Below are positions 3,938 to 31,589 of a stretch of 32,000 nt of DNA, piece after piece. This stretch comes from Candidatus Methanoperedens sp. (GTDB lineage Archaea > Halobacteriota > Methanosarcinia > Methanosarcinales > Methanoperedenaceae). Position numbers and translations under genes: made by a program. The notes beneath the pieces were generated by a model. The model had not been told where the DNA came from. It searched no databases and saw nothing but the letters and a program-made list of their open reading frames with translations. Every line of letters begins with the position of its first letter. Position 1 is the first letter of the stretch. The stretch is from the NCBI GenBank assembly GCA_041494705.1, contig JBGQBI010000002.1, positions 390,001 through 422,000 on the forward strand, in the 5' to 3' direction.

Positions 3938-3999
3938 AAAAAAATCGTGGCGAAATAATTTCGGGATTCTACAATCACAAAAAAATAATAATTCGCGTA

Positions 4000-4074
4000 T
4001 AGCGGGGAATGGATTCGAACCATTGATCTACGGGTTATGAGCCCGTCGGGATATCCTGACTACCCTACCCCGCT
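4000..4074 (-). tRNA. Initiator tRNA-Met (anticodon CAT), archaeal type
   Basis: The reverse complement folds as a cloverleaf: AGCGGGG acceptor pairing with CCCCGCT, anticodon stem-loop ACGGG-CTCATAA-CCCGT, and T arm AATGG-TTCGAAT-CCATT. An A1:U72 pair plus three G:C pairs next to the anticodon loop are initiator hallmarks. CCA is not encoded. Confidence 0.9.
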
Positions 4075-11410: not shown

Positions 11411-11450
11411 ACGTTATTAGTTCTGCAAGTTTAATAAGACCTGAGATTAA

Positions 11451-12446: not shown

Positions 12447-12459
12447 GATTTTATCAGCC

Positions 12460-14021: not shown

Positions 14022-14081
14022 GAAAATAAAAAAGAAAAAGTTTGATTAAATCTCCGTTAAGAAACTTAATCATCCTTTTAT

Positions 14082-15842
14082 TTAGTCCTTTTTGTTCTTG
14101 TCGGTTGTACCTTTGTGCACTTGTGTGTTGGTGTGTTCTTGTGTATTGGTATGCTCTTGTGTATTGTTGTGCACTTGTATGTTGGTATGCTCATGCGTAT
14201 TGGTGTGCTCATGAGTATTGGTATGCTCTTGTGTGTTGTTGTGCTCTTGCTCGTTCTCTTCTTGCTCTTCTTGCTCATGCTTGCCATTGTGGCCTACAGG
14301 CAGTGCATTTACTGATACGATTGCACGTCCGTTGATTGTACCGTTTGCTGCGGTGATAGTGGTAGTTCCTGCTGATAATGCAGTGAACTTGCCTGTGGCA
14401 TCAATGGTACCAACGGTCGTGTTGCTGCTCACCCATGTAAATATTGCCGAGATGATATGGCCCATCTGGTCAAATGCAGTGGCTGTAAATGTCTGTGTGC
14501 CGTTCACTTTTAACGACTTTTTTGGGGGTGAGACCGTTATGGTTTTCAGTACCGATGTTCCCGGAGCTGTTACAGTTGCGCCTGCAATTCCGATGACAGT
14601 TCCACCAGTTCCATTTGTCGCGATTATTGTTGTCATTCCTGCTTCAAGTGCTGTAAACACGCCTGTTGCAGAATCGATTGTTCCAACTGTGGTATTGCTG
14701 CTACTCCAAACTGTTGCCGGGCTAATCGATATGGAAACGCCATTCTGGTCAAAACCTGCTGCCGTAAAGCTCTGTGTTTCGCCCACTACCTTCGATGCCG
14801 TGAAGGGTGAGACCGTTATGGTTGTCAGTACTGGTGTCGGTGCTGGCGCTGATACAGTTACGCTTGCCGTTCCGCTGACAGTTCCACCAGTTCCATTGGT
14901 GGCGGTTATAGTTGTAGTTCCTGCTGCAAGTGCATTGAACATGCCTGTGGTTGGATTGATTGTTCCAACTGTGGTATTGCTGCTGCTCCAAACCACTGCC
15001 GGGCTAATCGCTATGGTAGCACCGAACTGGTCAAAACCTGCTGCTGTGAAGGTCTGACTTCCACCTAAAGTCAGCAACGCTGTTGCTGGTGTGACTGTTA
15101 TTGTGGTCAGAACCGGCACAGGCGCTGGCGCTGATACTGTTGCAGTTGCAGTTCCGCTGACAGTTCCACTCGTTCCATTCTTGGCGGTTATAGTTGTCGT
15201 TCCTGCTGCAAGTGCATTGAATACACCTGTGGTTGGATTGATTGTTCCAACTGTGGTATTGCTGCTGCTCCAAACTGTTGCCGGGCTAATCGATATGGAA
15301 CCGCCGGTCTGGTTAAAACCTGCTGCCGTAAAGCTCTGTGTTTCGCCCACTAATTTCGATGCTGATGTGGGTGAAACCGTTATGGTTGTCAGTACCGGTG
15401 TCGGCGCTGCTGCCTGTACTGTAATCGTAATATCTTTGAAGTTGGTTATTGGACCACCTGATACTGTGGAAGCATAAACCGTAACTTTATATGAACCTGC
15501 AGCCGAAGGTGCCTTTAAAGTTGTTGTTCCTGTTCCGCTACCGCTAACAATAACTCCACCTGAAGGAATGCCAAAAAGCGCATTATCATTTGCTACTGAC
15601 GGCCATTTTGCTGTCGCGCTCGACGGGCTCCAGGTTACAGTTACAACAAAACTCTCTCCCGGGGCTACTGTCGTTTTTGGGGTTGTTGCGGTGATGCTAA
15701 CACTCGACGATATGGAATGGCAGTCCGTACACACCATGTCATAATTTGCGTGTGCCGATACTCCCGGCACTGCTATTAGAGCCATTACTAAAAATAACAG
15801 CCCAATTTTCAATTTATTGTTCATTTGTTTTTTCCTATTCAT
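14082..15842 (-). CDS. Secreted monoheme c-type cytochrome-like protein with four Big_2 (Ig-like) repeats and a His-rich repetitive C-terminal tail
   Basis: The ORF is open to 15899, but a GGAG motif lies 8 nt upstream of the ATG at 15842 (MNRKKQMNNKLKIGLLFLVMALIAVPGVSAHA signal peptide). A single CTDCH heme-binding motif (15717-15731) sits right after the signal. Four ~94-aa repeats carry the Big_2-like pattern L..I.V.P...L..G.TQ.FTA.....G........W.SSN..V.TI...G...A...G...I.A. The tail is HEQEEQEENEQEHNNTQEHTNTHEHTNTHEHTNIQVHNNTQEHTNTQEHTNTQVH. Confidence 0.8.
   Translation of the reverse strand: MNRKKQMNNKLKIGLLFLVMALIAVPGVSAHANYDMVCTDCHSISSSVSITATTPKTTVAPGESFVVTVTWSPSSATAKWPSVANDNALFGIPSGGVIVSGSGTGTTTLKAPSAAGSYKVTVYASTVSGGPITNFKDITITVQAAAPTPVLTTITVSPTSASKLVGETQSFTAAGFNQTGGSISISPATVWSSSNTTVGTINPTTGVFNALAAGTTTITAKNGTSGTVSGTATATVSAPAPVPVLTTITVTPATALLTLGGSQTFTAAGFDQFGATIAISPAVVWSSSNTTVGTINPTTGMFNALAAGTTTITATNGTGGTVSGTASVTVSAPAPTPVLTTITVSPFTASKVVGETQSFTAAGFDQNGVSISISPATVWSSSNTTVGTIDSATGVFTALEAGMTTIIATNGTGGTVIGIAGATVTAPGTSVLKTITVSPPKKSLKVNGTQTFTATAFDQMGHIISAIFTWVSSNTTVGTIDATGKFTALSAGTTTITAANGTINGRAIVSVNALPVGHNGKHEQEEQEENEQEHNNTQEHTNTHEHTNTHEHTNIQVHNNTQEHTNTQEHTNTQVHKGTTDKNKKD
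14112..14246 (-). repeat. Imperfect 18-nt tandem repeat (plus-strand unit ttgtgtattggtatgctc) encoding (E-H-T-N-T-Q/H)n
   Basis: About 7 consecutive degenerate 18-nt units are visible directly in the DNA. They are in frame with the cytochrome-like CDS. Confidence 0.8.
14301..15407 (-). repeat. Four in-frame tandem repeats of ~282 bp encoding the Big_2 domains
   Basis: The string gtggtattgctgct(a/g)ctccaaac...gccgggctaatcg recurs at about 14692, 14974 and 15256, a period of 282 nt. The antisense ORFs 14749-14991 and 15031-15273 are near-identical and offset by 282 nt. Confidence 0.85.
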
Positions 15843-16264
15843 TCTTTTTCTCCTATCTGCCTGCTTGAGATGCAATAAGGCATCTTTGCAGAATACCAAT
15901 AGTATAACAATTGTTAATTTAACTATACTGAGAGTTTTTCATGGTTTTTGAGTTTTTACGGTCTATAAAAGCTTATTTTAGTTTTTTATCGTTCAATAAA
16001 CTATTTTTTTAAATTAAAAGTTGAAGTAATAACCCAAATCTTAAAATACCACCCCCAAGTACTCAGATGTTGAAGAGATAGGGAAATGATACTGGATGAT
16101 AGAAATAAAACCAAGCATAGAATCTGATTGGAAAAGTTGGCAAAAGCCGATAGAATAGAATCGTTGACGGGATATAGGAGGAAACTACTTCGACTTCTGC
16201 CTAATCATATTACGTCAATTGACGATTTAAAATTTACGGGTATTTATTCCCTGGGAAATTGTGT

Positions 16265-18271
16265 TCATAACAGGTGATAGTGTCCGATAACCTGATTGGC
16301 AATTCCTCCGATAAGTATTGCAAGAATTATCGTGAATACCATAATCCCGAATGCCCGCTTCCAGCCAAGCTCCCGCCCGAGTACTGCAATAGTAGCAACG
16401 CACGGGATATAAATCGTGTTAACAAGGGCGTACACGAATAACTGGGCAGGCGTCATGAATATAAGAAGGTTCTTTGCGCCGCCCCCGTACATGACAACCG
16501 CCAGCGTTACAAGCAACTGGAGCGCAAGTTCCTTCCGGAGTACGGCAAATATCAGCGTAAGTCCTGCCACTGCGGGAAGCCCGAGCCACCCCTCAACCAC
16601 CGGGGATAACGGTGCTGCCAGTTTCCAGAGATAACCGGTCTCGTAAAGCGCCCCCAGAAAAAGAGAGCCGGCAAGCACAATCGGGAATGCCACGAACACG
16701 AAATCCTTGAACCTGTACCATGTCTTCTTGACGATATTCGACATCAAGGGCATCCTGAAGGGGAACATCTCCATGACAAGCCCTGTGGAACTGCCTGGCA
16801 TTACTTTGTTAAGCCCGACGCCTACGAGAAACACAAGCGCCAGGACGATGATATATATCGCAACCGCCGGCTTCCATCCCACGAATAGCGAGACTGCGCC
16901 CAGGATGACAGCCGTCCGGGCGCTGCACGGGATGAGCGTGATGAGAGTGCTGGCTATAGTCCGCTCGCGCATCGTGGTCAATACCCGCGTTCCTATGATG
17001 GCTGGCACATTGCATCCAGCGCCTGCCACAAGCGGGATAATGGCGCGCCCGTGAAGACCGAACTTGTGCATCAGCCTGTCAGTCAGGAAAGCGACCGAGT
17101 TCAGGTATCCCGAATCCTCAAGGAAAGCGAGCATGAAATAAAAGGTGAGCACGTAGGGAATCCCGACTGCAAGCGCTGCAAGGATGCCAGCGTCAAAGCC
17201 CCAGATGAGGATTTTGCCGATATGCCCCGTCCCGAAGATATAGAATATTATGCCATCGATGACAGGCGACATATACGATGCCCAGAGGCTGCTGAATAAG
17301 TTGGAAAGCCGGTTGCCCCCATAAAACATGAAAGCGAATATTACTCCAAGGATACCGATGAGAAGCGGTATGCCTGTCAGCGGCGATGTGGTGTATGCCC
17401 AGAGCCTATCAGACCTTGCTGGTGTGACATCGCCCTGCACCTGTGAGGCTACTGTTCCTGCAAGACCATGCCTTTCACGGGCTATTCTTAGAGGTGATTT
17501 TTCGCCATGTTTTTCTTCGATTTCCCGGCTGATTTTATTTGCCTCTTCGAGAATGGAATTTCCATTTGCGTGTTTCTTTACAAGTTCTATGAACTCGGAA
17601 TCCTCTTCGAGGAGCAGTATTGCCAGTGCCCTCGGGTTTATTCCGAAATCATAAGGCGCAAGTAAATCGCCAAGCTTTTTTATGCTGGCTTCAATATCCC
17701 CGCCATAGTGAATATCATATTTGATTTTCTTTTTCTGTCCTGCAATATCTACGGCTTTTTGTATCAGTTCATCAAGGCCGCTGCCTGTGGTGGCGATTGT
17801 TTTTGCCACAGGGACGCCAAGAAGCCGGGAAAGGAGGGGCGCATCGATAATAATATTCCTTTTCTCTGCCTCGTCTATCAGGTTCAAAGCAACCACAAGC
17901 GGGATGCCAAGGTCGATGAACTGGAGAGTCATGTATAGGTTCCTGGCAAGGTTGGTTGCGTCAAGAATCATTATCACGGCATCGGGTTTGCAATCGAGCA
18001 TCGCCCTTCGGGCAACCCACTGGTCTTCTGACACAGCTCCGAGGGCATAGCTTCCGGGAAGGTCGATTATGCCGATGCGCAGTTCTTTAAAAGTCGTGGT
18101 CGCCATATTCAGTTCCACGGTCTTGCCCGGATAGTTTGCCGTAACGACTCCCATTCCTGTGAGCCTGTTGAATATGCTTGATTTGCCTACGTTCGGGTTG
18201 CCCGCAAGCGCAAATGTAAAATCAGTTTTACCTTTTATTTCCTTGAGGGCGCCGTGACATGAAAGAGCCAT
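16265..18271 (-). CDS. feoB: Ferrous iron transporter FeoB
   Basis: N-terminal GTPase domain with G1 GNPNVGKSS, G3 DLPG and G4-like NLID, followed by a large polytopic membrane domain. The 668-aa length fits. It starts 1 nt after the upstream gene's stop codon. Confidence 0.95.
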   Translation of the reverse strand: MALSCHGALKEIKGKTDFTFALAGNPNVGKSSIFNRLTGMGVVTANYPGKTVELNMATTTFKELRIGIIDLPGSYALGAVSEDQWVARRAMLDCKPDAVIMILDATNLARNLYMTLQFIDLGIPLVVALNLIDEAEKRNIIIDAPLLSRLLGVPVAKTIATTGSGLDELIQKAVDIAGQKKKIKYDIHYGGDIEASIKKLGDLLAPYDFGINPRALAILLLEEDSEFIELVKKHANGNSILEEANKISREIEEKHGEKSPLRIARERHGLAGTVASQVQGDVTPARSDRLWAYTTSPLTGIPLLIGILGVIFAFMFYGGNRLSNLFSSLWASYMSPVIDGIIFYIFGTGHIGKILIWGFDAGILAALAVGIPYVLTFYFMLAFLEDSGYLNSVAFLTDRLMHKFGLHGRAIIPLVAGAGCNVPAIIGTRVLTTMRERTIASTLITLIPCSARTAVILGAVSLFVGWKPAVAIYIIVLALVFLVGVGLNKVMPGSSTGLVMEMFPFRMPLMSNIVKKTWYRFKDFVFVAFPIVLAGSLFLGALYETGYLWKLAAPLSPVVEGWLGLPAVAGLTLIFAVLRKELALQLLVTLAVVMYGGGAKNLLIFMTPAQLFVYALVNTIYIPCVATIAVLGRELGWKRAFGIMVFTIILAILIGGIANQVIGHYHLL

Positions 18272-18272
18272 T

Positions 18273-18923
18273 TCATTTTACCTTTATCTTTGACGCTACT
18301 TCTCTTCCCAGGGCGTATCTGGAACCTGAAACGCACACGATTAAAGGTCCTCCGAACGGTGCAACTTCTTCCACTTCTACGCACACATCAGGAATCAATC
18401 CAAGCGATGCGAGGTACTGGAGCATTTTCGGGTCTTCTTCAAACACGCTGACGATAATCCCCTTATCCCCGGCTTTTAATTCCGATAACGGCCTGACTAT
18501 TTCTTTTACAAATACGCCGTCCTTATCAGGTATGGGATGACCGTGCGGGCATGTCCTGGGGTTTCCGAGGCTTTCAGCAATGCGGTCTTCCATCTCAGGA
18601 CTTATTGCATGCTCAAGCCTGCACGCCTCATCGTGCACCTCGTCCCATTTGAAACCCAGAATATCTGTAAGCAACCTCTCGGAGAGCCTGTGCCTGCGAA
18701 TGACTTTTTTAGCCATTTTATTGCCTTCTTCTGTCAGGCATACTCCTTTTTCGATTTGGTTCACCAGACCTTTGTGCGCCAGTTTTTTTATCATCTCGGA
18801 TACGGACGGCGGGGAGAGTTTCAGATGTTCCGCGAGACGTGATGTGCTTACAGGATGCTGTTCCTGCTGGAGTTTGTAGATTGATTCAAGATATTCTTCA
18901 ATCCTTGAGGTATCAGCTTCCAT
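18273..18923 (-). CDS. DtxR/SirR/MntR-family metal-dependent transcriptional repressor with a C-terminal FeoA/SH3-like domain
   Basis: N-terminal wHTH (EEYLESIYKL...VSTSRLAEHLKLSPPSVSEMIKKL), metal-binding and dimerisation region (RRHRLSERLL, EACRLEH, CPHGHPIP), and a C-terminal SH3-like domain (LSELKAGDKGIIV...). Confidence 0.9.
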   Translation of the reverse strand: MEADTSRIEEYLESIYKLQQEQHPVSTSRLAEHLKLSPPSVSEMIKKLAHKGLVNQIEKGVCLTEEGNKMAKKVIRRHRLSERLLTDILGFKWDEVHDEACRLEHAISPEMEDRIAESLGNPRTCPHGHPIPDKDGVFVKEIVRPLSELKAGDKGIIVSVFEEDPKMLQYLASLGLIPDVCVEVEEVAPFGGPLIVCVSGSRYALGREVASKIKVK

Positions 18924-18924
18924 G

Positions 18925-19764
18925 TCATCTCACCTTTTCCGGTGCTTTGAAAGACCTGTAAACAAACATTCCGATAATTATCCAGTAGCCGATATACGAA
19001 AGTACCATTGTCAGTGAAGGGGCTGCGTGGTAGCCAATAAGCGAGCTGAGGCCGCTCCCGATAAGACCATTCTCATGAAGAAGGGGGTAAGAGCCGTCAG
19101 GATTCAGGGGTGGGTTCAAGTCCCACACATGCTCTACCAACGGGGGTATGATTCCGGCTTCGTTGAATCCGCCCACGGCGGTAGCTATCAGCCCGGCTGA
19201 AAACAATATCAGCAGTACGCTTGTATATTTGAAAAATTTGGTTACGTCAAGGCTGTGCATTCCTTTGAACATAACAAACGACATAACGACCACAACCACA
19301 AGCCCGGCAGCAAAACCAAGAATGGTATCAAAAGGGGAATTGATTGCCAGTGTTCCAAGGAACAGGACAGTCTCGACCCCTTCCCTGAATACGGCGATAA
19401 AGGAGAGGACTGCAATTCCCACGGCGTGGCCTTTCGATATGGAGAGGTCTATCTTTTCCTGGACTTCTCCTTTTATCTTTCTTGAATTCTGCGCCATCCA
19501 GAAAATCATGTATGTCAATACAACGGCAGCGGCAAGAGCGGCGCCGCCTTCGAACAGTTGCTCCGCCGTTCCCTGAAGTTCTCCATATACTAATTTGAAT
19601 ACGAGCGCAACCCCGATACTTGCGATTACCGCGCCGATTATACCGGTGTAGATGTAACGATTTAGGTCTTTTCTGCCTATTTTTGCGACATAAGCCGCGA
19701 TTATTCCGATAATCAGGGCTGCTTCAAGCGCTTCCCTGAACGTTATTAAAAAGCTTGCTAACAT
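18925..19764 (-). CDS. FTR1-family high-affinity iron permease
   Basis: Two REXXE iron-binding motifs (FREALEA near the N-terminus, FREGVET mid-protein) lie in a ~7-TM protein. This is the first gene of the FTR1-DtxR-FeoB operon, which has only 1 nt between each stop codon and the next start. Confidence 0.9.
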   Translation of the reverse strand: MLASFLITFREALEAALIIGIIAAYVAKIGRKDLNRYIYTGIIGAVIASIGVALVFKLVYGELQGTAEQLFEGGAALAAAVVLTYMIFWMAQNSRKIKGEVQEKIDLSISKGHAVGIAVLSFIAVFREGVETVLFLGTLAINSPFDTILGFAAGLVVVVVMSFVMFKGMHSLDVTKFFKYTSVLLILFSAGLIATAVGGFNEAGIIPPLVEHVWDLNPPLNPDGSYPLLHENGLIGSGLSSLIGYHAAPSLTMVLSYIGYWIIIGMFVYRSFKAPEKVR

Positions 19765-19783
19765 AAGGTATCCTTTTTCTATT

Positions 19784-19801
19784 AATTAGGTATACCTAAT
19801 T
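19784..19801. promoter_or_regulatory. 18-bp perfect palindrome aattaggtatacctaatt, a candidate DtxR-family operator in the iron-operon promoter
   Basis: The site is 20-37 nt upstream of the FTR1 start codon. Its outer arms TTAGGT/ACCTAA equal the arms of the classical DtxR/IdeR box TTAGGTTAGCCTAACCTAA. A TTAGCCTA element (19813-19820) and a TATA-like ttatata (minus strand, about 19819-19826) lie just upstream. Confidence 0.55.
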
Positions 19802-19865
19802 TGTAGGTTTTGTTAGCCTATATAATTTTCGGTGAGTATTATAAGCTATAAGCCACAAACATGGC

Positions 19866-20102
19866 TCATCGCACACTCCGCAGCTTATGACTGACCTGTT
19901 TTCCCAGTTCCGTCAAAGCATATTTCCCACCTGAAAGTGCTAAAAGCTTTTTCCCCACCAGTTCTTCAATACTCTTATCCGCCCCCACCATCCGGGCTGT
20001 TTTAGCTATGGTAGCGCTGTCCAAGGGTCCCTTTGAATCCAGTACAGCAAGAATCTTGCTTGCTTTTTGGTTACTTGCAACAAAACCGATTAATTCTTCC
20101 AT
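19866..20102 (-). CDS. Small winged-helix protein (78 aa), hypothetical regulator
   Basis: KILAVLDSKGPLDSATIAKTARM...LVGKKLLALSGGKYALTELG resembles a MarR/TrmB-like wHTH. The gene is divergent from the SRP RNA. Confidence 0.5.
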   Translation of the reverse strand: MEELIGFVASNQKASKILAVLDSKGPLDSATIAKTARMVGADKSIEELVGKKLLALSGGKYALTELGKQVSHKLRSVR

Positions 20103-20160: not shown

Positions 20161-20477
20161 AGCGGCGGGCTAGCCCGGGTAATTCGGCGTTACCTGTAAC
20201 CCGAAACCGTCGATAGCGGGGGGCGAAGCCAGAGGAAGAAGTTTTGACTGTTGCCCGGCCCGCAGGTTCTACTGTGAAACCCCGTCCTGTGGGGCTAGTG
20301 TCGGTGCAAGGGCTTTCCTGAAGGAAGGTTTTTGTATCTTAATTGCGGACAAAGGTCTAGGCCCGGAAGGGAGCAAACCGCCCGTGAACAACTAACGCTC
20401 ACGGGGGCGCGGGGCGGAGGCGAGTTTGCGGTCAACCGGACAGCGGAAGGGACTACGACCCGAGGCATGCCCGCTAC
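20161..20477 (+). ncRNA. Archaeal signal recognition particle RNA (7S RNA)
   Basis: The 5' domain GGGCTAGCCCGGG..TTCGGCG..CCTGTAACCCGAAACCG.CGATA fits the archaeal SRP Alu-domain pattern. The helix-8 signature AGGCCCGGAAGGGAGCAA is at about 20359-20376. The 5' GCGGGC pairs with the 3' GCCCGC. Length is ~317 nt, it ends in a TTTT run, and a TATA-like aactttatt lies ~25 nt upstream. Confidence 0.85.
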
Positions 20478-20494: not shown

Positions 20495-20514
20495 AAGGAT
20501 TTTAATTTATCCTT
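20495..20514. terminator. Short hairpin (aaggat-N8-atcctt) between the convergent SRP RNA and cytochrome gene
   Basis: A 6-bp inverted repeat is visible in the sequence and overlaps the cytochrome stop codon. Archaeal termination usually relies on T-runs, so its function is uncertain. Confidence 0.3.
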
Positions 20515-23500
20515 AACCTCGCTTTGAAATAATGAGATAAACAACCATTAAAGAGATTATTATAGAACCTAAATCCAAATCAGCGGCATTCTTCTTGTTC
20601 TGGCCGGCACCCTGTGCATCAGAAACTATAGTAAAGTTTACTGGATAAAATTCACCCCACGTGTTATTTCTCTCCATTGAATGGATATAAATTATATGCG
20701 TCCCGGTTGAAATACCGCTTGTATTGATTTCAGTAGCTAACTGTTCAACTTGCGAGTCAAAAACACCGTCAACGGCTTTAAGAGGTATTCCATATCCAGG
20801 GCTGCCTTTTGTATCTATGAAGTATTCAGCAGATCTTATTTTCATCCCGATACCGCCTGCTGCTGTCGCTGTCAATTTCACCGATTCTGTGCTATTGATA
20901 ACAGTCCGGGATAAATTAGCTTCACTTATGGAAGGCAGCATCTGGGGTCTAATAATCTCATGTGACCTTGGCATGTGACATAATTCGCAGGCAGAAAAAT
21001 ATCCATGAGCTTCGTCGCTGAGATTTACTGCTCCATACGTCGGTTTATCCTGGTATGTATGACATGATGTGCAGTTCCTTGGCATAACGTATGTGGGTGA
21101 ATGCGTATTTGGTTCGGTTCCATCTGTATGGCATGCCAGGCATGCTTTATCAATGCTATCTGACATATAGGCATTATCAGGCGCTGCTGCATTCAATATT
21201 GAATGTTTTCCAAGCCGTGATGAAATAGCATTGACCTGAGAAATTCTAAGGTTCTTTGAGGAATCATGACATCTCACACAATCAGCCCAATCCCTGGGAT
21301 TATCAAACAGGTTTGGAGTATGCAGGCTTGCCGGGATTTTTCCAAGTGTGAACCTGTCGCCGGGATGAAGCCAGCTGCTATTATACCCGAATTGAGTGGT
21401 GTTAGCGGTAGTCTTCAATACCTGTGTCGACAGGAGTTGCGAATCCTGAAGTACGATAAAGTCTTTCTGCCCCAGGAAAACGCTTGAAACGTTTGTAGTG
21501 AAAATGGTCATATTGGTGTCAGTATATTCTTTATACCTGATATCGGTATAATAATCGAACACCGAGCCGGCAGTGACCACATCATCTTCGACGGTTTTAT
21601 TATCGATCCTGAATTCCAGCCATGCCTGCCTGTCCGTACTGGAGGCTTTGAATTTCAAAGAATAATTGTCAGCCATCTGCCACGTTTGTCCATCTTCTAA
21701 ATATTTCTGATAAGTAGGGACTGAAATGAACTTATCCATAATACCGAGCTGGTCAAACACATAATCCTCATCGTTGAAGTAAATCTTACTCTTATTTTCT
21801 AATTTATGATCGAGTAACACTCCGGTATAATAGATTATATCCCGCCCCTCATCTTTTGCTTCTCTATCAATGACCTTATATCGTTCTTTTTCCGTTGAAT
21901 ACCGGTACATGTGACAGGCAAAGCAAGCGCTGTCCTTGCTTTCCTTTTCAGTGTGGATCTTTCGCGGCCTGTATGCCTCGAATATGATAAAACTTTCTTT
22001 AACGCCAGTAAAGATGGAGTTTATGCGCACCGTAATTGCAGGTGTCTTGAACGTTGCATTATCGATTGTGACCTCTCTCTCGTAAGTATATGGGTTATCC
22101 TGGCCAACCATTGCCTGGTCCACGATAACATCTTTATTCAGGATCTGGATAAAGGCGTCCCCTCTTAAAGCTGAAATTTCTATTAATTTCAATGAGTAAC
22201 CTTCACCAAGATATACGGTCTGCCCTTGGAAGAGAGTAATATTGTTATCTTCTCTATTTACCTCGATAGTGCCTACCCTGTCCTTATTGATCAGCGTGGC
22301 ATTTCCCCAGTCCTTACTGTTATCCTTATCGAGATGGCAATAAATGCAATTGAAAGAATCGACTAAGTTATCTTTTGACCCATAATGCGATACGAGAGCA
22401 AGATTTGAATTGTTATCTTTTGTTACTAAACTGTTTATATGGCAGTTCTGGCATTGCTCTGTTGTTGTTATATTGTAATTTGTAACGTTATTTGGATTAC
22501 TATTCAGGCTTGCGTTCTGGAAGTGCGAATAAATCATTGTCTCGTTGTATTGTGACTGTGAAATCGAGTGGCAGTCATCATTATTGCAGTTATTTGGGGC
22601 ATTGTAATTAGAGGGATGTCTGTCTGTCGGTTGTGCGCTCTCACTTCCATCGCCATCCCCGTGGCACGCCCAGCAGCGTGAATTATTTGCGCTCGTAGAA
22701 TTTGAATTGTTGAAATTCAGGTTGCGATGTACCGAGTCAGTGTTATTGAGTGAGGAAAAACTTACCTCCTTTTGTGCAATTCCCCCGGTATCATGGCAAT
22801 TAATACAATTAACTCCACCTACAGCCAAATTATGCATGAATCCTGTAATACTCGTACTTGAGTTCACGCTCCCGTGGCAGTTCCTGCATGTGCTATCATT
22901 GTAATCGGAAAAACCGCTATGATTGTAATAAGCAGGATTACTCTTGTTTGCTCCGAAGCTTGCATTTCCCGTAATCTCAGGCGGGACTAACAACGGTTCA
23001 TTTGGAAAGTTAAAGGTACTGACTGTATCGTTAGAGGTATTGGCTCCGCTTGAATAGCCCTGCCAGTGGCATGAAGCACACCAAGAAGTGCTTGTTGAGA
23101 TTGTAGAGTTTACCGTGTTGCTGCCTTGTAACAGCGAAGGTCTGCCTAAAGCAGTGGCATTGTGCAGGGTTATGCCGTGGCAGTAGAGGCATGACGAATT
23201 TTGTGCGCTGCCATCTGTTCCGTTTATCCAGTAACCCGGAGTTTCATTCCATTTTCTGCCGGAGTTTATATCAGCGCCGTGACTCACGGGTTTTGGAATC
23301 TGAGGGGGGTCACTTCCTGAGTATGCGCCTGCCCGTGGCTTTAACAACAAAGCGTCTAAAAATGTGGAATTCTGGTGGCAGTTTGTGCAGTTGCCCCTGT
23401 CCGCAGAAGTGCTGCCGTTTATGTAAGTGGCATTCCGGGCAAACACCTTAATCATGTGCGCATCCTGGCTGTGACATACAGTGCAGTTCACGCTGTTGTT

Positions 23501-24982
23501 GTGGCGCTGGTATGCATTATGGCAGGCAGTGCACTGGGTGTACTCTGTAACATTATTCGTATTCGCAGGCAGAGGGTCGGGTTTTGTGACGTTGTGCGCG
23601 GGTCCATGACATACAACGCATGGAACTGATGCAATTAAACTGGAATTCGTACCGTTGTGTGCAGTAAGTGGGGTTCCAGTACTATAATTATAAGAATATA
23701 CCGAAATATTCACTCCCGTGACATTATTATCAGGTCCTGGTGTTAAATTAGCCAAGGTGCTTATATTTGTGAGGTTGTTATTGTATATAGGATGGCAATC
23801 GTAACAGCTCGGCATCTTTGGAATTCCCGCTCCACCGCCACCCGTTTGATCCTTTATGTAAGTCCAGTTACCATGGCAGAAATCACATGATCTATTCTTA
23901 TGAACATCATTTGTATAACCATATGCATCTGAATTGTTTGCCGAATATCCAGGGTGGCAAAAATAGCATCCTCTTCCTGAACTGGAATGGCTGTTAAATA
24001 AGTGTGCCACTTGAGCGAATGAATTGTTTTTGCCGTAACCCCCCGTATAGGGGGAACGCGGATAATTAAGATTAGAACCATTAAGGGTAATAGCAGTTAT
24101 CCTATGACAATATCCACGAGTACTGCTACAAGTAATAGCTGCACCAGTAGTAGAATTCCTACCGCTAGTCATATTTCCCCCACCTAGTATGCTCATATTC
24201 GTACTACCCCTCACGGCTGAATTGCTTGTATTATAGGCAGTTATAGTCCAATTGCCATAGTCAGTATCATTGACAATAGTAAAATCACCGCTCGCATTAT
24301 AGGAAACACTTGCCAAACCATTCTGTTGGGTTATGTTAAATAGAGTCGTTTTTAATGTTCCATTTGCATAAATCTCAAAAGTAATGTTTGTTCCGTTAAC
24401 CGGCAATCCATTATCTAAGAGCAAAGCAAAAGCAGTGAAATTTCCACTGAGATTAAAAGTGTAGAGTGATGTCTTTTGCCAGGGAGCGTAAATTGAGTAT
24501 CTGTTGGTTGCGACTCGTATGATCTCCGCGCCGCCTGTTGCTGAAACACCAAATGGTGAAAAAGAAGTTGTGGTCGCTGTGAGTATATTGTTTGCAGCGT
24601 CCACCGTTGTAGCCAGCGGCTCCCACGCGGCGCCATTCCAGTGGTAAATTACCAGCCCGTTCTCATCCATTCCTTTAATTTCTGCATCGGTGTAACGTAT
24701 CGTTACTGTTGCAGGAGAATGGGAATTTCTGCTTGCGCCGATTTCCATGAATTTTATAGCTTTTCCCGGAAGCGGAACCGGGACGGGGTTGTTTTTCCCA
24801 TAATCCTCAATGATAATCTCTCCGCCGCTTGCATTTCTGGTCTGATTCTCTTTTGTAGAGTTAACAGAATCATTGCATGGATGGCAGTCTGAATAGCTCG
24901 CCCCCCTTAGCCAGGGGATGAAAGCCACTACTATTACTAAAAACAAAAATAAAATTATAATAAATTGCTTTGGTATTTGCAT
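20513..24982 (-). CDS. Giant multiheme c-type cytochrome (1489 aa) with an inserted S-layer duplication-like domain and a C-terminal TM anchor
   Basis: N-terminal signal/TM (FIIILFLFLVIVVAFIPWL). A PGF-pre-PGF-like domain spans residues ~55-150 (LVIYHWNGAAWEPLATTVDAANNILTATTTSFSPFGV). There are 19 canonical CxxCH motifs: 14 between residues 339 and 883, one at 1020-1024, and four between 1235 and 1336. A CNNDDCH (CX4CH) lies at 799-805. A heme-poor beta-rich region at ~900-1215 resembles the Methanosarcina S-layer DUF1608 pattern. The protein ends in an Ig-like domain and the TM helix IIISLMVVYLII-SKRG. Confidence 0.9.
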   Translation of the reverse strand: MQIPKQFIIILFLFLVIVVAFIPWLRGASYSDCHPCNDSVNSTKENQTRNASGGEIIIEDYGKNNPVPVPLPGKAIKFMEIGASRNSHSPATVTIRYTDAEIKGMDENGLVIYHWNGAAWEPLATTVDAANNILTATTTSFSPFGVSATGGAEIIRVATNRYSIYAPWQKTSLYTFNLSGNFTAFALLLDNGLPVNGTNITFEIYANGTLKTTLFNITQQNGLASVSYNASGDFTIVNDTDYGNWTITAYNTSNSAVRGSTNMSILGGGNMTSGRNSTTGAAITCSSTRGYCHRITAITLNGSNLNYPRSPYTGGYGKNNSFAQVAHLFNSHSSSGRGCYFCHPGYSANNSDAYGYTNDVHKNRSCDFCHGNWTYIKDQTGGGGAGIPKMPSCYDCHPIYNNNLTNISTLANLTPGPDNNVTGVNISVYSYNYSTGTPLTAHNGTNSSLIASVPCVVCHGPAHNVTKPDPLPANTNNVTEYTQCTACHNAYQRHNNSVNCTVCHSQDAHMIKVFARNATYINGSTSADRGNCTNCHQNSTFLDALLLKPRAGAYSGSDPPQIPKPVSHGADINSGRKWNETPGYWINGTDGSAQNSSCLYCHGITLHNATALGRPSLLQGSNTVNSTISTSTSWCASCHWQGYSSGANTSNDTVSTFNFPNEPLLVPPEITGNASFGANKSNPAYYNHSGFSDYNDSTCRNCHGSVNSSTSITGFMHNLAVGGVNCINCHDTGGIAQKEVSFSSLNNTDSVHRNLNFNNSNSTSANNSRCWACHGDGDGSESAQPTDRHPSNYNAPNNCNNDDCHSISQSQYNETMIYSHFQNASLNSNPNNVTNYNITTTEQCQNCHINSLVTKDNNSNLALVSHYGSKDNLVDSFNCIYCHLDKDNSKDWGNATLINKDRVGTIEVNREDNNITLFQGQTVYLGEGYSLKLIEISALRGDAFIQILNKDVIVDQAMVGQDNPYTYEREVTIDNATFKTPAITVRINSIFTGVKESFIIFEAYRPRKIHTEKESKDSACFACHMYRYSTEKERYKVIDREAKDEGRDIIYYTGVLLDHKLENKSKIYFNDEDYVFDQLGIMDKFISVPTYQKYLEDGQTWQMADNYSLKFKASSTDRQAWLEFRIDNKTVEDDVVTAGSVFDYYTDIRYKEYTDTNMTIFTTNVSSVFLGQKDFIVLQDSQLLSTQVLKTTANTTQFGYNSSWLHPGDRFTLGKIPASLHTPNLFDNPRDWADCVRCHDSSKNLRISQVNAISSRLGKHSILNAAAPDNAYMSDSIDKACLACHTDGTEPNTHSPTYVMPRNCTSCHTYQDKPTYGAVNLSDEAHGYFSACELCHMPRSHEIIRPQMLPSISEANLSRTVINSTESVKLTATAAGGIGMKIRSAEYFIDTKGSPGYGIPLKAVDGVFDSQVEQLATEINTSGISTGTHIIYIHSMERNNTWGEFYPVNFTIVSDAQGAGQNKKNAADLDLGSIIISLMVVYLIISKRG

Positions 24983-25161
24983 TTTTGTACCCCGTACTCT
25001 TTTTTGCTCTCACCCTCTTCATTCAACAGCATCTGCTATTTTAAAAAACGTTTTTCCCTGTTTATTATATATTTGTGTTGTCCCTTTAATTATAATTAAT
25101 GGTAATTTGTCGCAAAGATAAGTTTAAAACGTTTGGTCTTTAACTATAATGCCAGTCCTGA

Positions 25162-29099: not shown

Positions 29100-29152
29100 A
29101 ATCCAAGAAACATTTAATACCTGTCAAACTATAAAACCCGCTGTCATACCGT

Positions 29153-29226
29153 GGACTCGTGGGGTAGCCAGGATATCCTAGCGGGCTTCGAACCCGCGGA
29201 CCCGCGTTCGAATCGCGGCGAGTCCG
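29153..29226 (+). tRNA. tRNA-Arg (anticodon TCG)
   Basis: Acceptor GGACTCG/CGAGTCC, anticodon arm GCGGG-CTTCGAA-CCCGC, T arm CCGCG-TTCGAAT-CGCGG, discriminator G. A TTTTTT terminator run follows, and a TATA-like actataaaa lies ~20 nt upstream. Confidence 0.9.
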
Positions 29227-29578
29227 TTTTTTAAACTGAAAGCTTGATAAACCGTCCCGAAGGGCTGTTCTCGCGGGTAGGCGCACATTCGCTTTTGCGT
29301 GCTCCCTTTAGGGCGGGGGCGCAATCGTCAGGATTGATTTTGATGGCTCTGTCTTGGCGCATATACAATAATTGACCGTTGATATTGAAGGATTGATTTT
29401 TATGAGATTAGTGTAAAGTTACAATGGTTTTTAGCTCTTAAATAATGGACATATTTATTAAATAATATTAAACAAATTTCTTTGTTAATGCCATGAATAG
29501 CTTTCTCATTCAATAAATTTAAATATTATTAATGTTAATGAAAACTCGTGGCTAACTTGAGATTGTAGAGGTTGAAAC

Positions 29579-30109
29579 ATGAGTTTAATAACTCAATTGA
29601 CGAATTCAGATATACCAATTGTCATTATCCTATTAGGTGCTCTTTTCCTTTATTTTGGATTTATTATAGGGAATACAAAAGTTTGGAAATCTGATAAAAT
29701 CGAATCTTATATAGAAGGTTTATTTTTCTTTGTTTTTTACATTTTTATTCCTTTTATTGCTTGTTTTTATCTCAGAGGTCAATTAAATGTTTGGTCTTTC
29801 TTATTAAATCCTATCTATATTCAAGTCGTTGTCTTACTTCAAGTCGCTGTCTTGTTATTTCAATTTGTTATCTTCAGCTTTCTTTCAACGGTCTTACAGG
29901 CACAGAGAATTAGAAGATATGAATTCGTTGATACAGGTAGAAATCAATTTGAAAAAATGATTAATGATTTTCCATTCATTGGGAGAATTATCAGAAGAAA
30001 TGAGAATTTGTATGATAAAGTTGAAACATTTTTTGAATTGTTTATCTACAAAATTCCGATTAAAATGGGGAATCGATACATACTTTTCATTTCTGACAAT
30101 CCTATTTAA
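29579..30109 (+). CDS. Hypothetical multi-TM membrane protein, possibly the 5' half of a frameshifted gene
   Basis: It has a hydrophobic N-terminal two-thirds with about 4 helices and lies in the AT-rich islet. GAGG lies ~10 nt upstream of the ATG. I recognise no motifs. Confidence 0.45.
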   Translation: MSLITQLTNSDIPIVIILLGALFLYFGFIIGNTKVWKSDKIESYIEGLFFFVFYIFIPFIACFYLRGQLNVWSFLLNPIYIQVVVLLQVAVLLFQFVIFSFLSTVLQAQRIRRYEFVDTGRNQFEKMINDFPFIGRIIRRNENLYDKVETFFELFIYKIPIKMGNRYILFISDNPI

Positions 30110-30683: not shown

Positions 30684-30740
30684 GTTGATTTATTTAGTAA
30701 ATAGTTTTATAATTATTATTTGGTTCGATGATTTTCTTAT

Positions 30741-31472: not shown

Positions 31473-31589
31473 AAATTTTAAAATGATTTTATTCCTAAAT
31501 AAAACTATTGTATCTTGGAATAAGTACGTTTACAATTTCCTATGCGTTTAAAAAAGAGAAAAATTCCGGTAAAAACCGGAATAACAGAC

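What the first reader, a model, noticed from the sequence alone, without database searches (positions are those of the whole stretch)
20513..24982. Giant 19-heme cytochrome fused to S-layer-type, Ig-like and membrane-anchor modules: a candidate extracellular electron conduit
The sequence shows a 1489-aa secreted protein with 19 canonical CxxCH motifs in three blocks (14, 1 and 4). It also has an N-terminal PGF-pre-PGF-like surface domain, a ~300-aa heme-poor insert resembling the Methanosarcina S-layer duplication domain, and a single C-terminal TM helix. Very large multiheme cytochromes carrying S-layer domains have been reported for ANME-2 / Methanoperedens-type archaea, where they are proposed to wire electrons through the S-layer. 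This locus therefore probably encodes the organism's key respiratory exit route. The exact domain order has not, to my knowledge, been characterised biochemically or structurally. That order is surface domain, 14 hemes, S-layer half, 1 heme, S-layer half, 4 hemes, Ig-like domain, TM.
Basis: partly seen in the sequence, partly recalled or inferred. Interest (0 to 1): 0.85.

Follow-up and report, generated by a model that had tools for sequence, protein, structure and literature searches.

The report
S-layer multiheme cytochrome of Methanoperedens
This gene encodes a large surface protein with about 21 iron-containing heme groups, built around two cell-wall (S-layer) domains, in a methane-oxidising archaeon; it belongs to a protein class already described and proposed, but never shown, to carry respiratory electrons out through the cell wall.

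Summary
ORF 20513-24982 (-) encodes a 1489-aa protein with exactly 19 CxxCH motifs in blocks of 14, 1 and 4. It has an N-terminal signal or anchor helix, a Pfam-significant S-layer (DUF1608) region, a C-terminal beta-sandwich and one C-terminal TM helix.

Corrections:
- Two further conserved non-canonical motifs (CX4CH at aa 799-805, CXnCH at aa 285-293) and 21 conserved extra histidines point to 20-21 bis-His hemes.
- The two S-layer "halves" are two paralogous copies of the same DUF1608 sub-domain.
- The PGF-pre-PGF similarity is below threshold.

The protein is chromosomal and from Candidatus Methanoperedens. Its C-terminal module (3 hemes, S1, heme, S2, 4 hemes, Ig-like domain, TM) is conserved across ANME-2a/b/c/d and ANME-3.

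This architecture, including the single heme between the S-layer sub-domains and the C-terminal TM helix, was published as "ANME MHC-A/B" (Chadwick 2022, after McGlynn 2015). It is therefore a new member of a known kind.

The S-layer electron-conduit function is the best explanation but remains inferred. "Key respiratory exit route" is not supported: several paralogues occur per genome and published expression is mixed.

New details: a 4-heme cassette indel, mosaic module recombination, and conserved linkage to an FTR1/Feo iron-uptake cluster.

The parts
20513..24982 (-). [quoted passage not shown]
   Evidence: A 100% identical protein (P0001) lies on a 2.07-Mb contig. Orthologues of 72-79% identity sit in the same locus in other Methanoperedens genomes.
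24983..25161 (-). Upstream intergenic region of 179 bp. It is AT-rich with TATA-like runs (aaatatataataaa, ttttttaaaata) and a G-rich stretch just before the ATG. Probably the gene's own promoter and 5' UTR (inferred).
   Evidence: Sequence read. No archaeal promoter tool is available, so this is inference only.
24896..24982 (-). aa 1-29: N-terminal hydrophobic segment (K5, h-region FIIILFLFLVIVVAFIPW, then LRGA/SYS). Sec signal peptide or signal anchor.
   Evidence: Hydropathy. Cleavage was not tested because no signal-peptide predictor was available.
24533..24820 (-). aa 55-150: heme-free beta-rich domain with weak similarity to the C-terminal third of the PGF-pre-PGF model. Absent from orthologues P0003, P0004 and P0008; duplicated in P0015 and P0017.
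   Evidence: TIGR04213 scores 17-19 bits against a cutoff of 28. AF2 pLDDT is 55-70. Indel pattern.
24188..24523 (-). aa 154-265: generic Ig-like beta-sandwich (Big_1 / MG2 / CARDB-like).
   Evidence: AF2 predicts strands with pLDDT up to 90. There is a weak MG2 hit. Foldseek gives only generic beta-sandwich hits, none below 1e-3.
22328..24130 (-). aa 285-885: outer heme block. It holds CX6CH (285-293), 14 CxxCH and CX4CH (799-805), i.e. up to 16 hemes, each paired with a conserved distal His. It is very rich in N-x-S/T sequons.
   Evidence: Sequons: 42 observed against 17.1 +/- 3.4 in shuffles. Distant profile matches to OmcA 4LMH (2.7e-10) and GSU1996 3OV0 (2.9e-9).
22811..23449 (-). aa 512-724: four-heme cassette (CxxCH at 532, 598, 635, 699 plus His 568, 607, 688, 717). 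Missing as a block from the syntenic orthologue P0006 and from P0007 and P0010.
   Evidence: alignment gap map; P0006 in the same locus.
   Evidence: C, C and H are invariant in 37 homologues. The motif is present in ANME-2, ANME-2d and ANME-3 homologues.
21947..22327 (-). aa 886-1012: S1, the first copy of the DUF1608 central beta-sandwich sub-domain. It ends at invariant His1010.
   Evidence: PF07752 41.0 bits, model positions 86-200. Profile A2 hits 3u2g_A residues 104-203 at E 7.7e-7. AF2 pLDDT is 71-85.
21911..21955 (-). aa 1010-1024: linker with invariant His1010 and CFACH (1020-1024). This is the single heme between the two S-layer sub-domains.
   Evidence: The same position is occupied in ANME-2 and ANME-3 homologues. 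Described for the family in PMC9012536.
21317..21892 (-). aa 1031-1222: S2, the second and longer copy of the same DUF1608 sub-domain. It ends at invariant His1221.
   Evidence: PF07752 32.3 bits, model positions 109-201. TIGR01567 match at aa 1061-1181. Profile A3 hits 3u2g_A residues 95-197 at E 2.4e-6. A2 vs A3 gives hhalign probability 97.4%. AF2 pLDDT is 85-92.
20948..21316 (-). aa 1223-1345: inner four-heme module (CxxCH at 1235, 1281, 1304, 1332) with conserved His at 1260, 1294, 1326 and 1341. No sequon enrichment.
   Evidence: Sequons: 2 observed against 1.4 expected. Weak MtrC/MtrF domain II/IV and c3/c7 hits.
20615..20947 (-). aa 1346-1456: Ig-like beta-sandwich of the widespread 'AEYFID...DGxFD...GxH...WG' repeat family, which has no Pfam or NCBIfam model.
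   Evidence: AF2 pLDDT is ~90. Hundreds of repeat-containing proteins match query positions ~495-580. Repeat sequences. No family hit.
20516..20587 (-). aa 1466-1489: C-terminal TM helix (LGSIIISLMVVYLIIS) and basic tail KRG. The PGF motif seen in many paralogues is replaced here by LDLGS.
   Evidence: Comparison of C-termini.

Best explanation
**What it is**
- A chromosomal Candidatus Methanoperedens (ANME-2d) gene for an S-layer-integrated multiheme c-type cytochrome. It belongs to the published 'ANME MHC-A' type.

**Proposed mechanism**
- The protein is exported by its N-terminal signal. Archaeal Ccm machinery loads it with 20-21 covalently bound bis-His low-spin hemes.
- It is tethered to the cytoplasmic membrane by the C-terminal helix, with the basic tail inside.
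- Going outward from the membrane come, in order: the Ig-like spacer, a four-heme inner module in the pseudo-periplasm, the two DUF1608-type beta-sandwiches, and the outer part.
- The two beta-sandwiches are proposed to co-assemble with the ordinary DUF1608 S-layer lattice, holding one heme between them in the plane of the layer.
- The outer part is a heavily N-glycosylated wire of up to 16 hemes plus two beta-sandwich domains, outside the S-layer.
- Electrons from methane oxidation would be delivered by membrane or periplasmic cytochromes to the inner hemes. They would hop heme to heme through the S-layer to the outer wire, and then to metal oxides, electrodes, humics or other extracellular cytochromes.

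**Shown here**
- The motifs, the domains and their order, and their conservation.
- A strict alternation of distal His and CxxCH that continues across S1 and S2.

**Inferred**
- Heme loading, topology, lattice insertion, continuity of the heme chain and direction of electron flow.
For: **Motifs and ligation**
- 19 CxxCH plus a conserved CX4CH and a conserved CXnCH.
- 21 conserved non-motif histidines for 21 motifs. A four-heme indel removes exactly four motifs and four histidines. This is the stoichiometry of all bis-His electron-transfer hemes with no open catalytic site.
- The pattern His, then 5-30 residues, then CxxCH runs unbroken along the protein. S1 is inserted between CxxCH-879 and His1010. 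S2 is inserted between CxxCH-1020 and His1221. The S domains therefore look like excursions from a continuous heme chain.

**S-layer domains**
- They pass the Pfam threshold.
- They match the crystallised MA0829 S-layer protein by profile and by fold.

**Topology**
- N-terminal signal-like helix and C-terminal TM helix with a basic tail.
- Sequon excess in the N-terminal 885 aa (42 vs 17.1 +/- 3.4 and 17 vs 5.8 +/- 2.0), but none in the inner four-heme module.

**Conservation and distant relatives**
- The C-terminal module and its motif order are conserved from Methanoperedens to marine ANME-2 and ANME-3 at 33-38% identity.
- The heme blocks are distantly related to the extracellular electron-transfer cytochromes OmcA and GSU1996.

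**Literature**
- The same model is proposed for the family (PMC9012536).
- A 23-heme S-layer paralogue is up-regulated on an anode (PMC10874420).
- S-layer MHCs are highly expressed during Mn(IV)-dependent methane oxidation (PMC7082337).
Against: - No member of the family has been purified, localised or solved.
- AF2 without hemes gave pLDDT below 50 for all heme regions. No coordinates were available, so heme-to-heme distances across the S-layer insert could not be checked.
- Only the central ~100-residue sub-domain of DUF1608 is recognisable, twice. TIGR01567 scores 47.6 bits against a cutoff of 121.9. Ability to enter the lattice is therefore not established.
- Expression of S-layer MHCs was low during Fe(III)-dependent AOM and in ANME-2c. 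The 19-heme S-layer MHC of Ca. M. manganireducens was not highly expressed.
- Five Methanoperedenaceae genomes lack any S-layer MHC, so the class is not essential for extracellular electron transfer.
- The gene has no neighbouring respiratory, Ccm or other cytochrome genes.
Confidence: 0.6

Rival explanations
1. It is a genuine S-layer cytochrome but only one of several parallel, acceptor-specific or redundant conduits, and not the main respiratory exit. The main flux would go through other multiheme cytochromes such as OmcZ-like nanowires, the 23-heme S-layer paralogue or soluble extracellular MHCs.
For: - By identity of the C-terminal module there are at least three paralogue classes: 70-91% (this orthogroup), ~50-58% (~990-aa proteins) and ~36-39% (the 23-motif proteins of M. 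nitroreducens and BLZ2).
- Several classes occur in one genome: three loci in Mnv1 and three in LFW-280_3_2.
- Ouboter 2024 found 33 MHC genes in one MAG, with the strongest induction in an OmcZ-like cluster.
- The 19-heme S-layer MHC of Ca. M. manganireducens was not highly expressed.
Against: - The orthogroup is kept intact, with all heme motifs and distal histidines conserved, in at least three syntenic genomes. That argues for selection on function.
- No expression data exist for this particular genome.
- The 19-heme protein of Leu et al. could not be shown to be the orthologue. The MnB_21 loci are only 37-38% identical.
Confidence: 0.4
2. It is a surface ferric reductase serving iron acquisition. 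It would reduce extracellular Fe(III) to Fe(II), which the adjacent FTR1 permease and FeoAB system then import.
For: - The gene order AIRS-like, MHC, (SRP RNA), 78-aa wHTH, FTR1, DtxR-FeoA fusion, FeoB is conserved in three Methanoperedens genomes (window; L004; L009).
- A 21-heme protein is itself a large iron sink.
Against: - The syntenic genomes are close relatives (72-79% identity), so shared order may simply reflect descent.
- The flanks on the other side are housekeeping tRNA-modification genes.
- A convergent SRP RNA gene separates the MHC from the iron genes, so they are not co-transcribed.
- More distant homologues sit in unrelated contexts.
- Twenty-one hemes and an S-layer anchor are far more than known assimilatory reductases need.
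Confidence: 0.1
3. It mainly stores or takes up electrons rather than exporting them. It would act as a redox capacitor in the envelope, or as an entry point for electrons from Fe(II), reduced humics, cathodes or partner cells.
For: - All hemes appear bis-His ligated. From general knowledge such chains are reversible wires, and large heme pools can buffer charge.
- Nothing in the sequence fixes a direction of flow.
Against: - Published physiology of Methanoperedens is methane oxidation with electron export to nitrate, metals and anodes.
- The elongated, modular, glycosylated outer wire looks designed for reach rather than storage.
Confidence: 0.08

Closest known systems
ANME MHC-A, the S-layer-domain multiheme cytochromes of ANME-2a/b/c/d and ANME-3 (Chadwick et al. 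2022, PLoS Biol, PMC9012536; concept from McGlynn et al. 2015, cited from my own knowledge)
   Same: - More than 20 heme motifs, including motifs with extra residues between the cysteines.
- DUF1608 S-layer region with exactly one heme motif between its two sub-domains.
- C-terminal TM helix, and ANME host.
- The motif order CWACH, CX4CH, CxxCH, CxYCH, [S1], CxACH, [S2], 4x CxxCH is shared with ANME-2, ANME-2d and ANME-3 proteins.
   Different: - This orthogroup has a ~260-aa heme-free N-terminal pair of beta-sandwiches and a particular 16-heme outer block with a four-heme cassette.
- Its C-terminal module is only 33-39% identical to the marine and 23-heme Methanoperedens forms.
- The sub-domains are shown here to be two copies of the same DUF1608 sub-domain rather than its two different parts.
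ANME MHC-B (same paper)
   Same: S-layer domain with linker heme, C-terminal TM helix and a heme-free N-terminal region.
   Different: - No peptidase M6-like hit in the N-terminal region.
- No CcmF2 gene next door.
- By contrast, the paralogue P0019 lies 1.5 kb from a CcmF gene and next to a 6532-aa S-layer MHC.
23-heme S-layer MHC of Ca. Methanoperedens (BLZ2-type), up-regulated on anodes (Ouboter et al. 2024, PMC10874420)
   Same: - Same family and same C-terminal module.
- L071 (BLZ2) and L039 (M. nitroreducens ANME-2d) encode ~1190-aa proteins with 23 motifs in the same order.
   Different: - It is a paralogue, not an orthologue: 37-38% identity over the 700-aa module.
- It has a different outer heme block and a different genomic locus.
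Methanosarcina acetivorans S-layer protein MA0829 (tandem DUF1608; PDB 3U2G and 3U2H)
   Same: - S1 and S2 are homologous to its central beta-sandwich stretch, and 3U2G is the best fold match.
- Both proteins have an N-terminal signal and a C-terminal membrane anchor.
   Different: - MA0829 has no hemes.
- Only residues ~95-205 of the 286-residue crystallised repeat are recognisable here.
- TIGR01567 scores 47.6 bits against a cutoff of 121.9.
MtrCAB / OmcA outer-membrane conduits of Shewanella, and the dodecaheme GSU1996 of Geobacter
   Same: - Works like them in concept: a chain of bis-His hemes carrying electrons across the outermost cell layer.
- Distant profile similarity of the heme blocks to OmcA (E 2.7e-10) and GSU1996 (E 2.9e-9).
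   Different: - No porin partner and no outer membrane.
- The barrier-spanning element is a pair of S-layer beta-sandwiches fused into the cytochrome itself.
- It is analogous to these systems, not a member of them.

Membership tests
ANME MHC-A (Chadwick 2022) | Very large c-type cytochrome with about 20-80 heme-binding motifs, some with extra residues between the cysteines | tested here: met
   19 CxxCH, one CX4CH and one CX6CH. The extended motifs are conserved in homologues.
ANME MHC-A (Chadwick 2022) | Predicted S-layer (DUF1608 / PF07752) domain | tested here: met
   PF07752 58.4 bits against a cutoff of 30. The two pieces score 41.0 and 32.3 bits. Profile hits to 3u2g_A. Foldseek top hit 3U2G.
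ANME MHC-A (Chadwick 2022) | A single heme-binding motif in the linker between the two S-layer sub-domains | tested here: met
   CFACH at aa 1020-1024 lies between S1 and S2. It is invariant in 37 homologues and is at the same position in ANME-2 and ANME-3 loci.
ANME MHC-A (Chadwick 2022) | C-terminal transmembrane helix | tested here: met
   Hydropathy peak at aa 1466-1489. AF2 helix at 1471-1486.
ANME MHC-A (Chadwick 2022) | Encoded by ANME-2 / ANME-3 archaea | tested here: met
   All named close homologues are Candidatus Methanoperedens. The window carries archaeal SRP RNA and archaeal housekeeping genes.
ANME MHC-A (Chadwick 2022) | Actual insertion into the S-layer and electron transfer across it | not testable with these tools
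   This needs localisation, structure or electrochemistry. It has not been demonstrated for any family member in the papers read.
ANME MHC-B (Chadwick 2022) | N-terminal heme-free region annotated as a peptidase M6-like domain | tested here: not met
   No PF05547 or M6 family hit at E <= 1 in Pfam or NCBIfam for the whole protein or for aa 1-290. InterProScan itself was not run.
ANME MHC-B (Chadwick 2022) | Gene adjacent to the divergent CcmF2 paralogue | tested here: not met
   The neighbours are an AIR-synthase-like gene upstream and SRP RNA, wHTH and FTR1 downstream. There is no Cytochrom_C_asm/CcmF in the 32-kb window.
Methanosarcina-type S-layer protein (TIGR01567 S_layer_rel_Mac / full DUF1608 repeat) | Full-length ~260-aa DUF1608 repeat reaching the model's trusted score | tested here: not met
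   TIGR01567 scores 47.6 bits against a cutoff of 121.9. Only model positions ~62-200 are matched, twice.
PGF-pre-PGF domain proteins (TIGR04213) | Match to TIGR04213 at or above 28 bits | tested here: not met
   17.2-19.3 bits over model positions 91-152 only. True matches of 138-150 bits occur at the C-terminus of paralogues P0215 and P0218.
PGF-CTERM / archaeosortase A substrates | Pro-Gly-Phe motif immediately before the C-terminal TM helix and basic tail | tested here: not met
   This protein has ...ADLDLGSIIISLMVVYLIISKRG. Several paralogues have PGF, PGL or PAF. No TIGR04126 hit.
Cytochrome nanowires (OmcS / OmcE / OmcZ type) | Homopolymerisation into a filament with inter-subunit heme stacking or ligation | not testable with these tools
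   No sequence match to nanowire subunits among the PDB hits. Membrane anchoring and S-layer domains argue for a tethered monomer or lattice component (inference).

The most novel reading that the evidence does not exclude
**A fixed socket with exchangeable wires**
- The conserved C-terminal unit (3 hemes, S1, heme, S2, 4 hemes, Ig-like domain, anchor) may be a fixed 'socket' through the S-layer.
- Methanoperedens would recombine interchangeable outer heme wires onto it.
- Evidence: a clean four-heme / four-histidine cassette indel between syntenic orthologues, and strongly discordant identities between modules.
  - P0010: S-module 91%, outer block 43%.
  - P0008: outer block 68-82%, S-module 49%.
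  - The outer block is also shared with MHCs that lack S-layer domains.

**Possible iron specialisation**
- This orthogroup is stably linked to an FTR1 / DtxR-FeoA / FeoB cluster.
- It could be the version specialised for Fe(III) at the cell surface, for respiration, uptake or both.
Probability: 0.2. Interest if true: 0.55.

Novelty: new member of a known kind. Interest (0 to 1): 0.35.

Why it matters
S-layer-fused giant cytochromes are the leading candidates for how methane-oxidising archaea move respiratory electrons through a protein cell wall. That step underlies metal-, electrode- and partner-dependent methane oxidation, and it has never been shown biochemically or structurally.

This locus adds a well-defined, complete orthogroup of moderate size:
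- 1489 aa with 20-21 hemes.
- All ligands mapped.
- Clear module boundaries.
- A natural four-heme deletion variant.

That makes it a practical target for heme-inclusive structure prediction, heterologous expression or cryo-ET. It does not change the current picture of the family.

Tried and rejected
**Searches that found nothing useful**
- Single-sequence phmmer of the S region and of the whole protein against PDB found nothing useful. Only profiles of S1 and S2 reached 3U2G.
- The PDB fold search of the N-terminal model gave only generic beta-sandwiches, none below 1e-3. No specific family is assigned to aa 28-284.
- Pfam and NCBIfam scans of the C-terminal domain and of its bacterial repeat relatives found no model.
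- A literature search for a cryo-EM structure of a Methanoperedens S-layer cytochrome returned nothing.
- I looked for att-like direct repeats next to the two tRNA genes flanking the low-GC stretches and found none.

**Sources that were unavailable or unhelpful**
- Arbing et al. 2012 could not be read. The sub-domain boundaries of DUF1608 are therefore taken only from my alignments to chain 3u2g_A.
- The Leu 2020 supplement did not let me identify their 19-heme protein. The MnB_21 loci are only 37-38% identical to this module. I do not equate the two proteins.

**Readings considered and rejected**
- Borg-encoded MHC: rejected because the window carries SRP RNA, tRNAs, FtsZ, CofD, MoeA and tRNA-modification genes.
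- Operon with the iron-uptake genes: rejected because a convergent SRP RNA gene lies between them.
- An in-frame upstream start like that of P0008: rejected because the upstream ATG at 25032 is out of frame.

**Test that could not be run**
- Heme-heme distances could not be measured. The structure tool returns no coordinates and models no hemes.

Full report
**1. The observation**

The minus-strand ORF 20513..24982 is real. It starts with ATG and encodes 1489 aa.

Fourteen lie between aa 339 and 879, one at 1020 and four at 1235-1332. Shuffles that keep the composition give 0.05 motifs on average and never more than 2.

Only two hydrophobic stretches pass a TM-like threshold: aa ~5-27 and aa ~1466-1489, the latter followed by KRG.

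The heme-poor stretch is a genuine S-layer match. Pfam PF07752 scores 58.4 bits against a curated cutoff of 30. Scanned separately, aa 888-1002 and aa 1090-1180 score 41.0 and 32.3 bits.

I modelled aa 791-1489 with AlphaFold2 on a 37-sequence alignment.
- Without hemes, all heme regions have pLDDT below 50.
- Three beta-sandwiches are confident: S1 at aa ~913-1005, S2 at ~1031-1190 and a C-terminal domain at ~1350-1455 with pLDDT ~90.
- A terminal helix is predicted at aa 1471-1486.
- The best PDB fold match of the model is 3U2G, the DUF1608 repeat of the Methanosarcina acetivorans S-layer protein MA0829, at E 4.8e-7.

**2. Corrections to the observation**

*(a) Heme count.*
Its C, C and H are invariant in all 37 aligned homologues. 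It is also present in ANME-2, ANME-2d and ANME-3 relatives.
- A C-x(4-10)-CH motif opens the heme block; here it is CSSTRGYCH at aa 285-293. It is conserved in position although its spacing varies.
- In an alignment of 11 relatives, 21 histidines outside the motifs are conserved: 327, 332, 361, 442, 463, 494, 509, 568, 607, 688, 717, 752, 789, 820, 866, 1010, 1221, 1260, 1294, 1326 and 1341. That is one per motif.
- This is the stoichiometry expected for 21 bis-His hemes, so I put the number at 20-21.
- The pair C285/C292 could instead be a disulphide with His293 acting as a ligand.

*(b) The two S-layer pieces are not complementary halves.*
- Both match the same part of the Pfam model, positions 86-200 and 109-201.
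- Profiles built from each hit the same stretch of chain 3u2g_A: residues 104-203 at E 7.7e-7, and residues 95-197 at E 2.4e-6.
- The two profiles match each other, with hhalign probability 97.4% and E 1e-11.
- They are therefore two paralogous copies of one DUF1608 sub-domain, with the heme motif in the connecting segment.

*(c) The N-terminal 'PGF-pre-PGF-like' label is weak.*
- TIGR04213 scores 17-19 bits against a cutoff of 28, and only over the last third of the model.
- A model of aa 28-300 shows beta structure of modest confidence and one good Ig-like sandwich at aa 154-265.
- PDB fold matches are only generic ones.
- A true PGF-pre-PGF domain of 138-150 bits does occur in this family. 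It sits at the C-terminal end of ~960-aa paralogues, in place of the Ig-like domain.

*(d) The C-terminal Ig-like domain belongs to a very widespread repeat.*
- The repeat signature is AEYFID...DGxFD...GxH...WG.
- It accounts for most of the 1902 hits of the C-terminal 610 aa in the 1.84-billion-protein library.
- It has no Pfam or NCBIfam model.

**3. Source and surroundings**

A 100% identical protein lies on a 2.07-Mb contig, and all named homologues are Candidatus Methanoperedens.

The window is chromosomal. It carries archaeal SRP RNA, two tRNAs, FtsZ, CofD, MoeA, shikimate-pathway genes and tRNA-modification genes.

The cytochrome gene stands alone.
- Upstream is a 179-bp AT-rich spacer with TATA-like runs.
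- Downstream, 36 bp after the stop codon, is the 3' end of a convergent SRP RNA gene at 20163-20476 (+).
- Beyond that, on the cytochrome's strand, lie a 78-aa winged-helix ORF, an FTR1 iron permease, a DtxR-FeoA fusion and FeoB.
- No Ccm, cytochrome b or other cytochrome genes are in the window.

The order SAM-HAT, QueA, TGT, AIRS-like, MHC, wHTH, FTR1, DtxR/FeoA, FeoB, Big_2, DUF7345 recurs around the 75%-identical P0004. The AIRS-like to FeoB core also recurs around the 72%-identical P0006. This is a stable orthologous locus.

More distant homologues sit elsewhere.
- P0019 lies beside a 6532-aa S-layer cytochrome and 1.5 kb from CcmF.
- P0015 lies next to a membrane-bound hydrogenase/complex-I-like cluster.
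- P0217 lies next to a 1397-aa cytochrome.
- P0012 lies in a mixed context.

**4. Family anatomy**

A scan of one genome per species found the 700-aa C-terminal module in many genomes.
- It occurs in many Methanoperedens genomes, often with several loci per genome.
- At 33-38% identity it occurs in ANME-2 cluster archaea, Methanocomedens (ANME-2a) and Methanovorans (ANME-3).
- The motif order CWACH, CX4CH, CxxCH, CxYCH, [~135 aa S1], CxACH, [~190-210 aa S2], then four CxxCH is the same in all of these.

By module identity, Methanoperedens has at least three paralogue classes.
- This orthogroup, at 70-91% identity.
- ~990-aa proteins, at ~50-58% identity.
- ~1190-2200-aa proteins, at 36-39% identity. 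These include the 23-motif proteins of M. nitroreducens and BLZ2.

The outer part is plastic.
- The syntenic orthologue P0006, and also P0007 and P0010, lack aa 512-724. That removes exactly four CxxCH motifs and four conserved histidines.
- Other relatives carry larger inserts at the same site.
- Region-by-region identities are strongly discordant:
  - P0010 is 91-92% identical in the S and inner modules but 43-46% in the outer block.
  - P0008 is 68-82% identical in the outer parts but 49% in the S-module.
  - Cytochromes without any S-layer domain (P0018, P0021, P0022) share the outer modules at 42-63%.
- This points to recombination of modules between paralogues.

**5. How it most likely works**

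The sequence features fit the published conduit model.
- It has an export signal.
- It has a C-terminal anchor with the basic tail on the cytoplasmic side.
- It has an Ig-like spacer and a compact four-heme module (31 aa per heme) next to the membrane.
- It has two S-layer sub-domains flanking one heme.
- It has an outer block of up to 16 hemes (about 38 aa per heme) plus two beta-sandwich domains outside.

Two observations made here bear on continuity and topology.

First, the alternation 'conserved His, 5-30 residues, CxxCH' runs unbroken along the whole protein. S1 sits between CxxCH-879 and His1010. S2 sits between CxxCH-1020 and His1221. The S domains therefore look like excursions from a continuous heme chain rather than breaks in it. 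This is an inference, not a measured distance.

Second, N-x-S/T sequons are far in excess overall: 76 against 26.5 +/- 4.5 in shuffles. The excess is regional.
- Outer heme block: 42 against 17.1 +/- 3.4.
- N-terminal domains: 17 against 5.8 +/- 2.0.
- Inner four-heme module: 2 against 1.4, no excess.
- Of the 59 sequons beyond aa 285, 37 are conserved in at least four of five orthologues.
- This is consistent with a glycan-covered exposed outer part and a sheltered inner part.

All hemes appear six-coordinate, which suits electron transfer rather than catalysis. The heme blocks are distantly related to OmcA and GSU1996.

Heme loading, lattice insertion, chain continuity and direction of flow are all inferred.

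**6. Comparison with what is known**

Chadwick et al. 2022 (PMC9012536) classified the giant ANME cytochromes as follows.
- MHC-A has an S-layer domain and a C-terminal TM helix.
- MHC-B additionally has an N-terminal peptidase-M6-like region and always lies next to CcmF2.
- They also noted motifs with extra residues between the cysteines.

The protein here meets every sequence-level criterion of MHC-A. It fails both MHC-B criteria: no M6 hit and no CcmF neighbour.

What is still missing for the whole family is any structure or biochemistry.

Published expression data are mixed.
- S-layer MHCs were highly expressed on Mn(IV), except the 19-heme one of Ca. M. manganireducens. I could not establish that this protein is the orthologue of the one studied here.
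- Expression was low on Fe(III) and in ANME-2c.
- A 23-heme paralogue was up-regulated on anodes.
- Five Methanoperedenaceae genomes lack such proteins altogether.

'Key respiratory exit route' is therefore not supported for this gene.

**7. Verdict**

This is a new, complete member of a known kind: an ANME MHC-A-type S-layer multiheme cytochrome, in a distinct Methanoperedens orthogroup.

Modestly new points:
- The 20-21 heme count with a one-to-one histidine map.
- The finding that the two S-layer pieces are duplicate copies of one sub-domain.
- The four-heme cassette indel and the mosaic module identities.
- The regional sequon bias.
- The conserved linkage to an iron-uptake cluster.

Interest is moderate to low for novelty. 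The protein is nonetheless a practical target for the structural test the field still lacks.

Noticed in passing
window 20163-20476 (+): Archaeal SRP RNA gene (Rfam RF01857, 208 bits). It converges on the 3' end of the cytochrome gene with a 36-bp gap. It separates the cytochrome from the downstream iron-uptake genes, so the cytochrome is monocistronic.
   Followed up: yes
window 16265-20102 (-): Iron-uptake cluster: a 78-aa winged-helix ORF (19866-20102), an FTR1 permease (18925-19764), a DtxR-type repressor fused to FeoA (18273-18923) and FeoB (16265-18271). Its linkage to the cytochrome is conserved in two further Methanoperedens genomes (L004, L009). Whether the linkage is functional or just inherited gene order is open.
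   Followed up: partly
window 20615-20947 (-), aa 1346-1456; proteins P0117, P0183, P0167: The C-terminal Ig-like domain belongs to a very abundant repeat (AEYFID..PG.G.G.P...DG.FD...E......L..G.H...VR..D..G.WG). It occurs up to ~30 times per protein in hundreds of large bacterial and archaeal surface proteins. No Pfam or NCBIfam model matches it; there are only weak GbpA_D3 and Big_3_5 hits.
   Followed up: partly
L002 1-9576 (-), next to P0019 at 10001-16594; CcmF at 18135-20051: A 6532-aa cytochrome with S-layer, MG2 and Laminin_G_3 hits lies head-to-head with a 2197-aa S-layer cytochrome and close to a CcmF gene in a Methanoperedens MAG (GCA_040960625.1). This probably corresponds to the MHC-B/CcmF2-type locus of Chadwick et al.
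   Followed up: no
proteins P0215, P0218 (aa ~758-918) and C-termini listed: Some ~960-aa paralogues replace the Ig-like domain with a bona fide PGF-pre-PGF domain (138-150 bits). Many homologues have PGF, PGL or PAF just before the C-terminal helix, suggesting archaeosortase processing. The window protein and its closest orthologues instead have LDLGS or LDFGS, so their anchoring may differ.
   Followed up: partly
window 2001-4000, and 29200-31500: Two low-GC stretches (33% and 29-36%, against ~45% elsewhere) each abut a tRNA gene: tRNA-Met at 4000-4074 (-) and tRNA-Arg at 29152-29227 (+). Their ORFs have no or only weak family hits: a 549-aa ORF with a weak CarboxypepD_reg hit, and a 243-aa ORF with a weak transglutaminase-like hit. 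They may be small acquired islands. No att-like repeats were found.
   Followed up: partly
window 30861-30943: A 21-nt tandem repeat (three or more copies, core TCATTATATTGTG) lies inside the 243-aa minus-strand ORF 30741-31472. It would give a 7-aa repeat in the protein.
   Followed up: no
window 12861-15899 (-): A 605-aa protein with four Big_2 Ig-like domains (14082-15899) and a DUF7345/DUF7343 HTH protein (12861-14021) follow FeoB. They are also conserved in the syntenic contig L009.
   Followed up: no
proteins P0006, P0007, P0011 (N-termini): Some orthologues have two N-terminal hydrophobic segments. The first resembles the window protein's signal, and the second ends in SSVASAA. Start-codon choice or signal architecture may therefore differ between genomes. 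In the window, the upstream ATG at 25032 is out of frame.
   Followed up: partly
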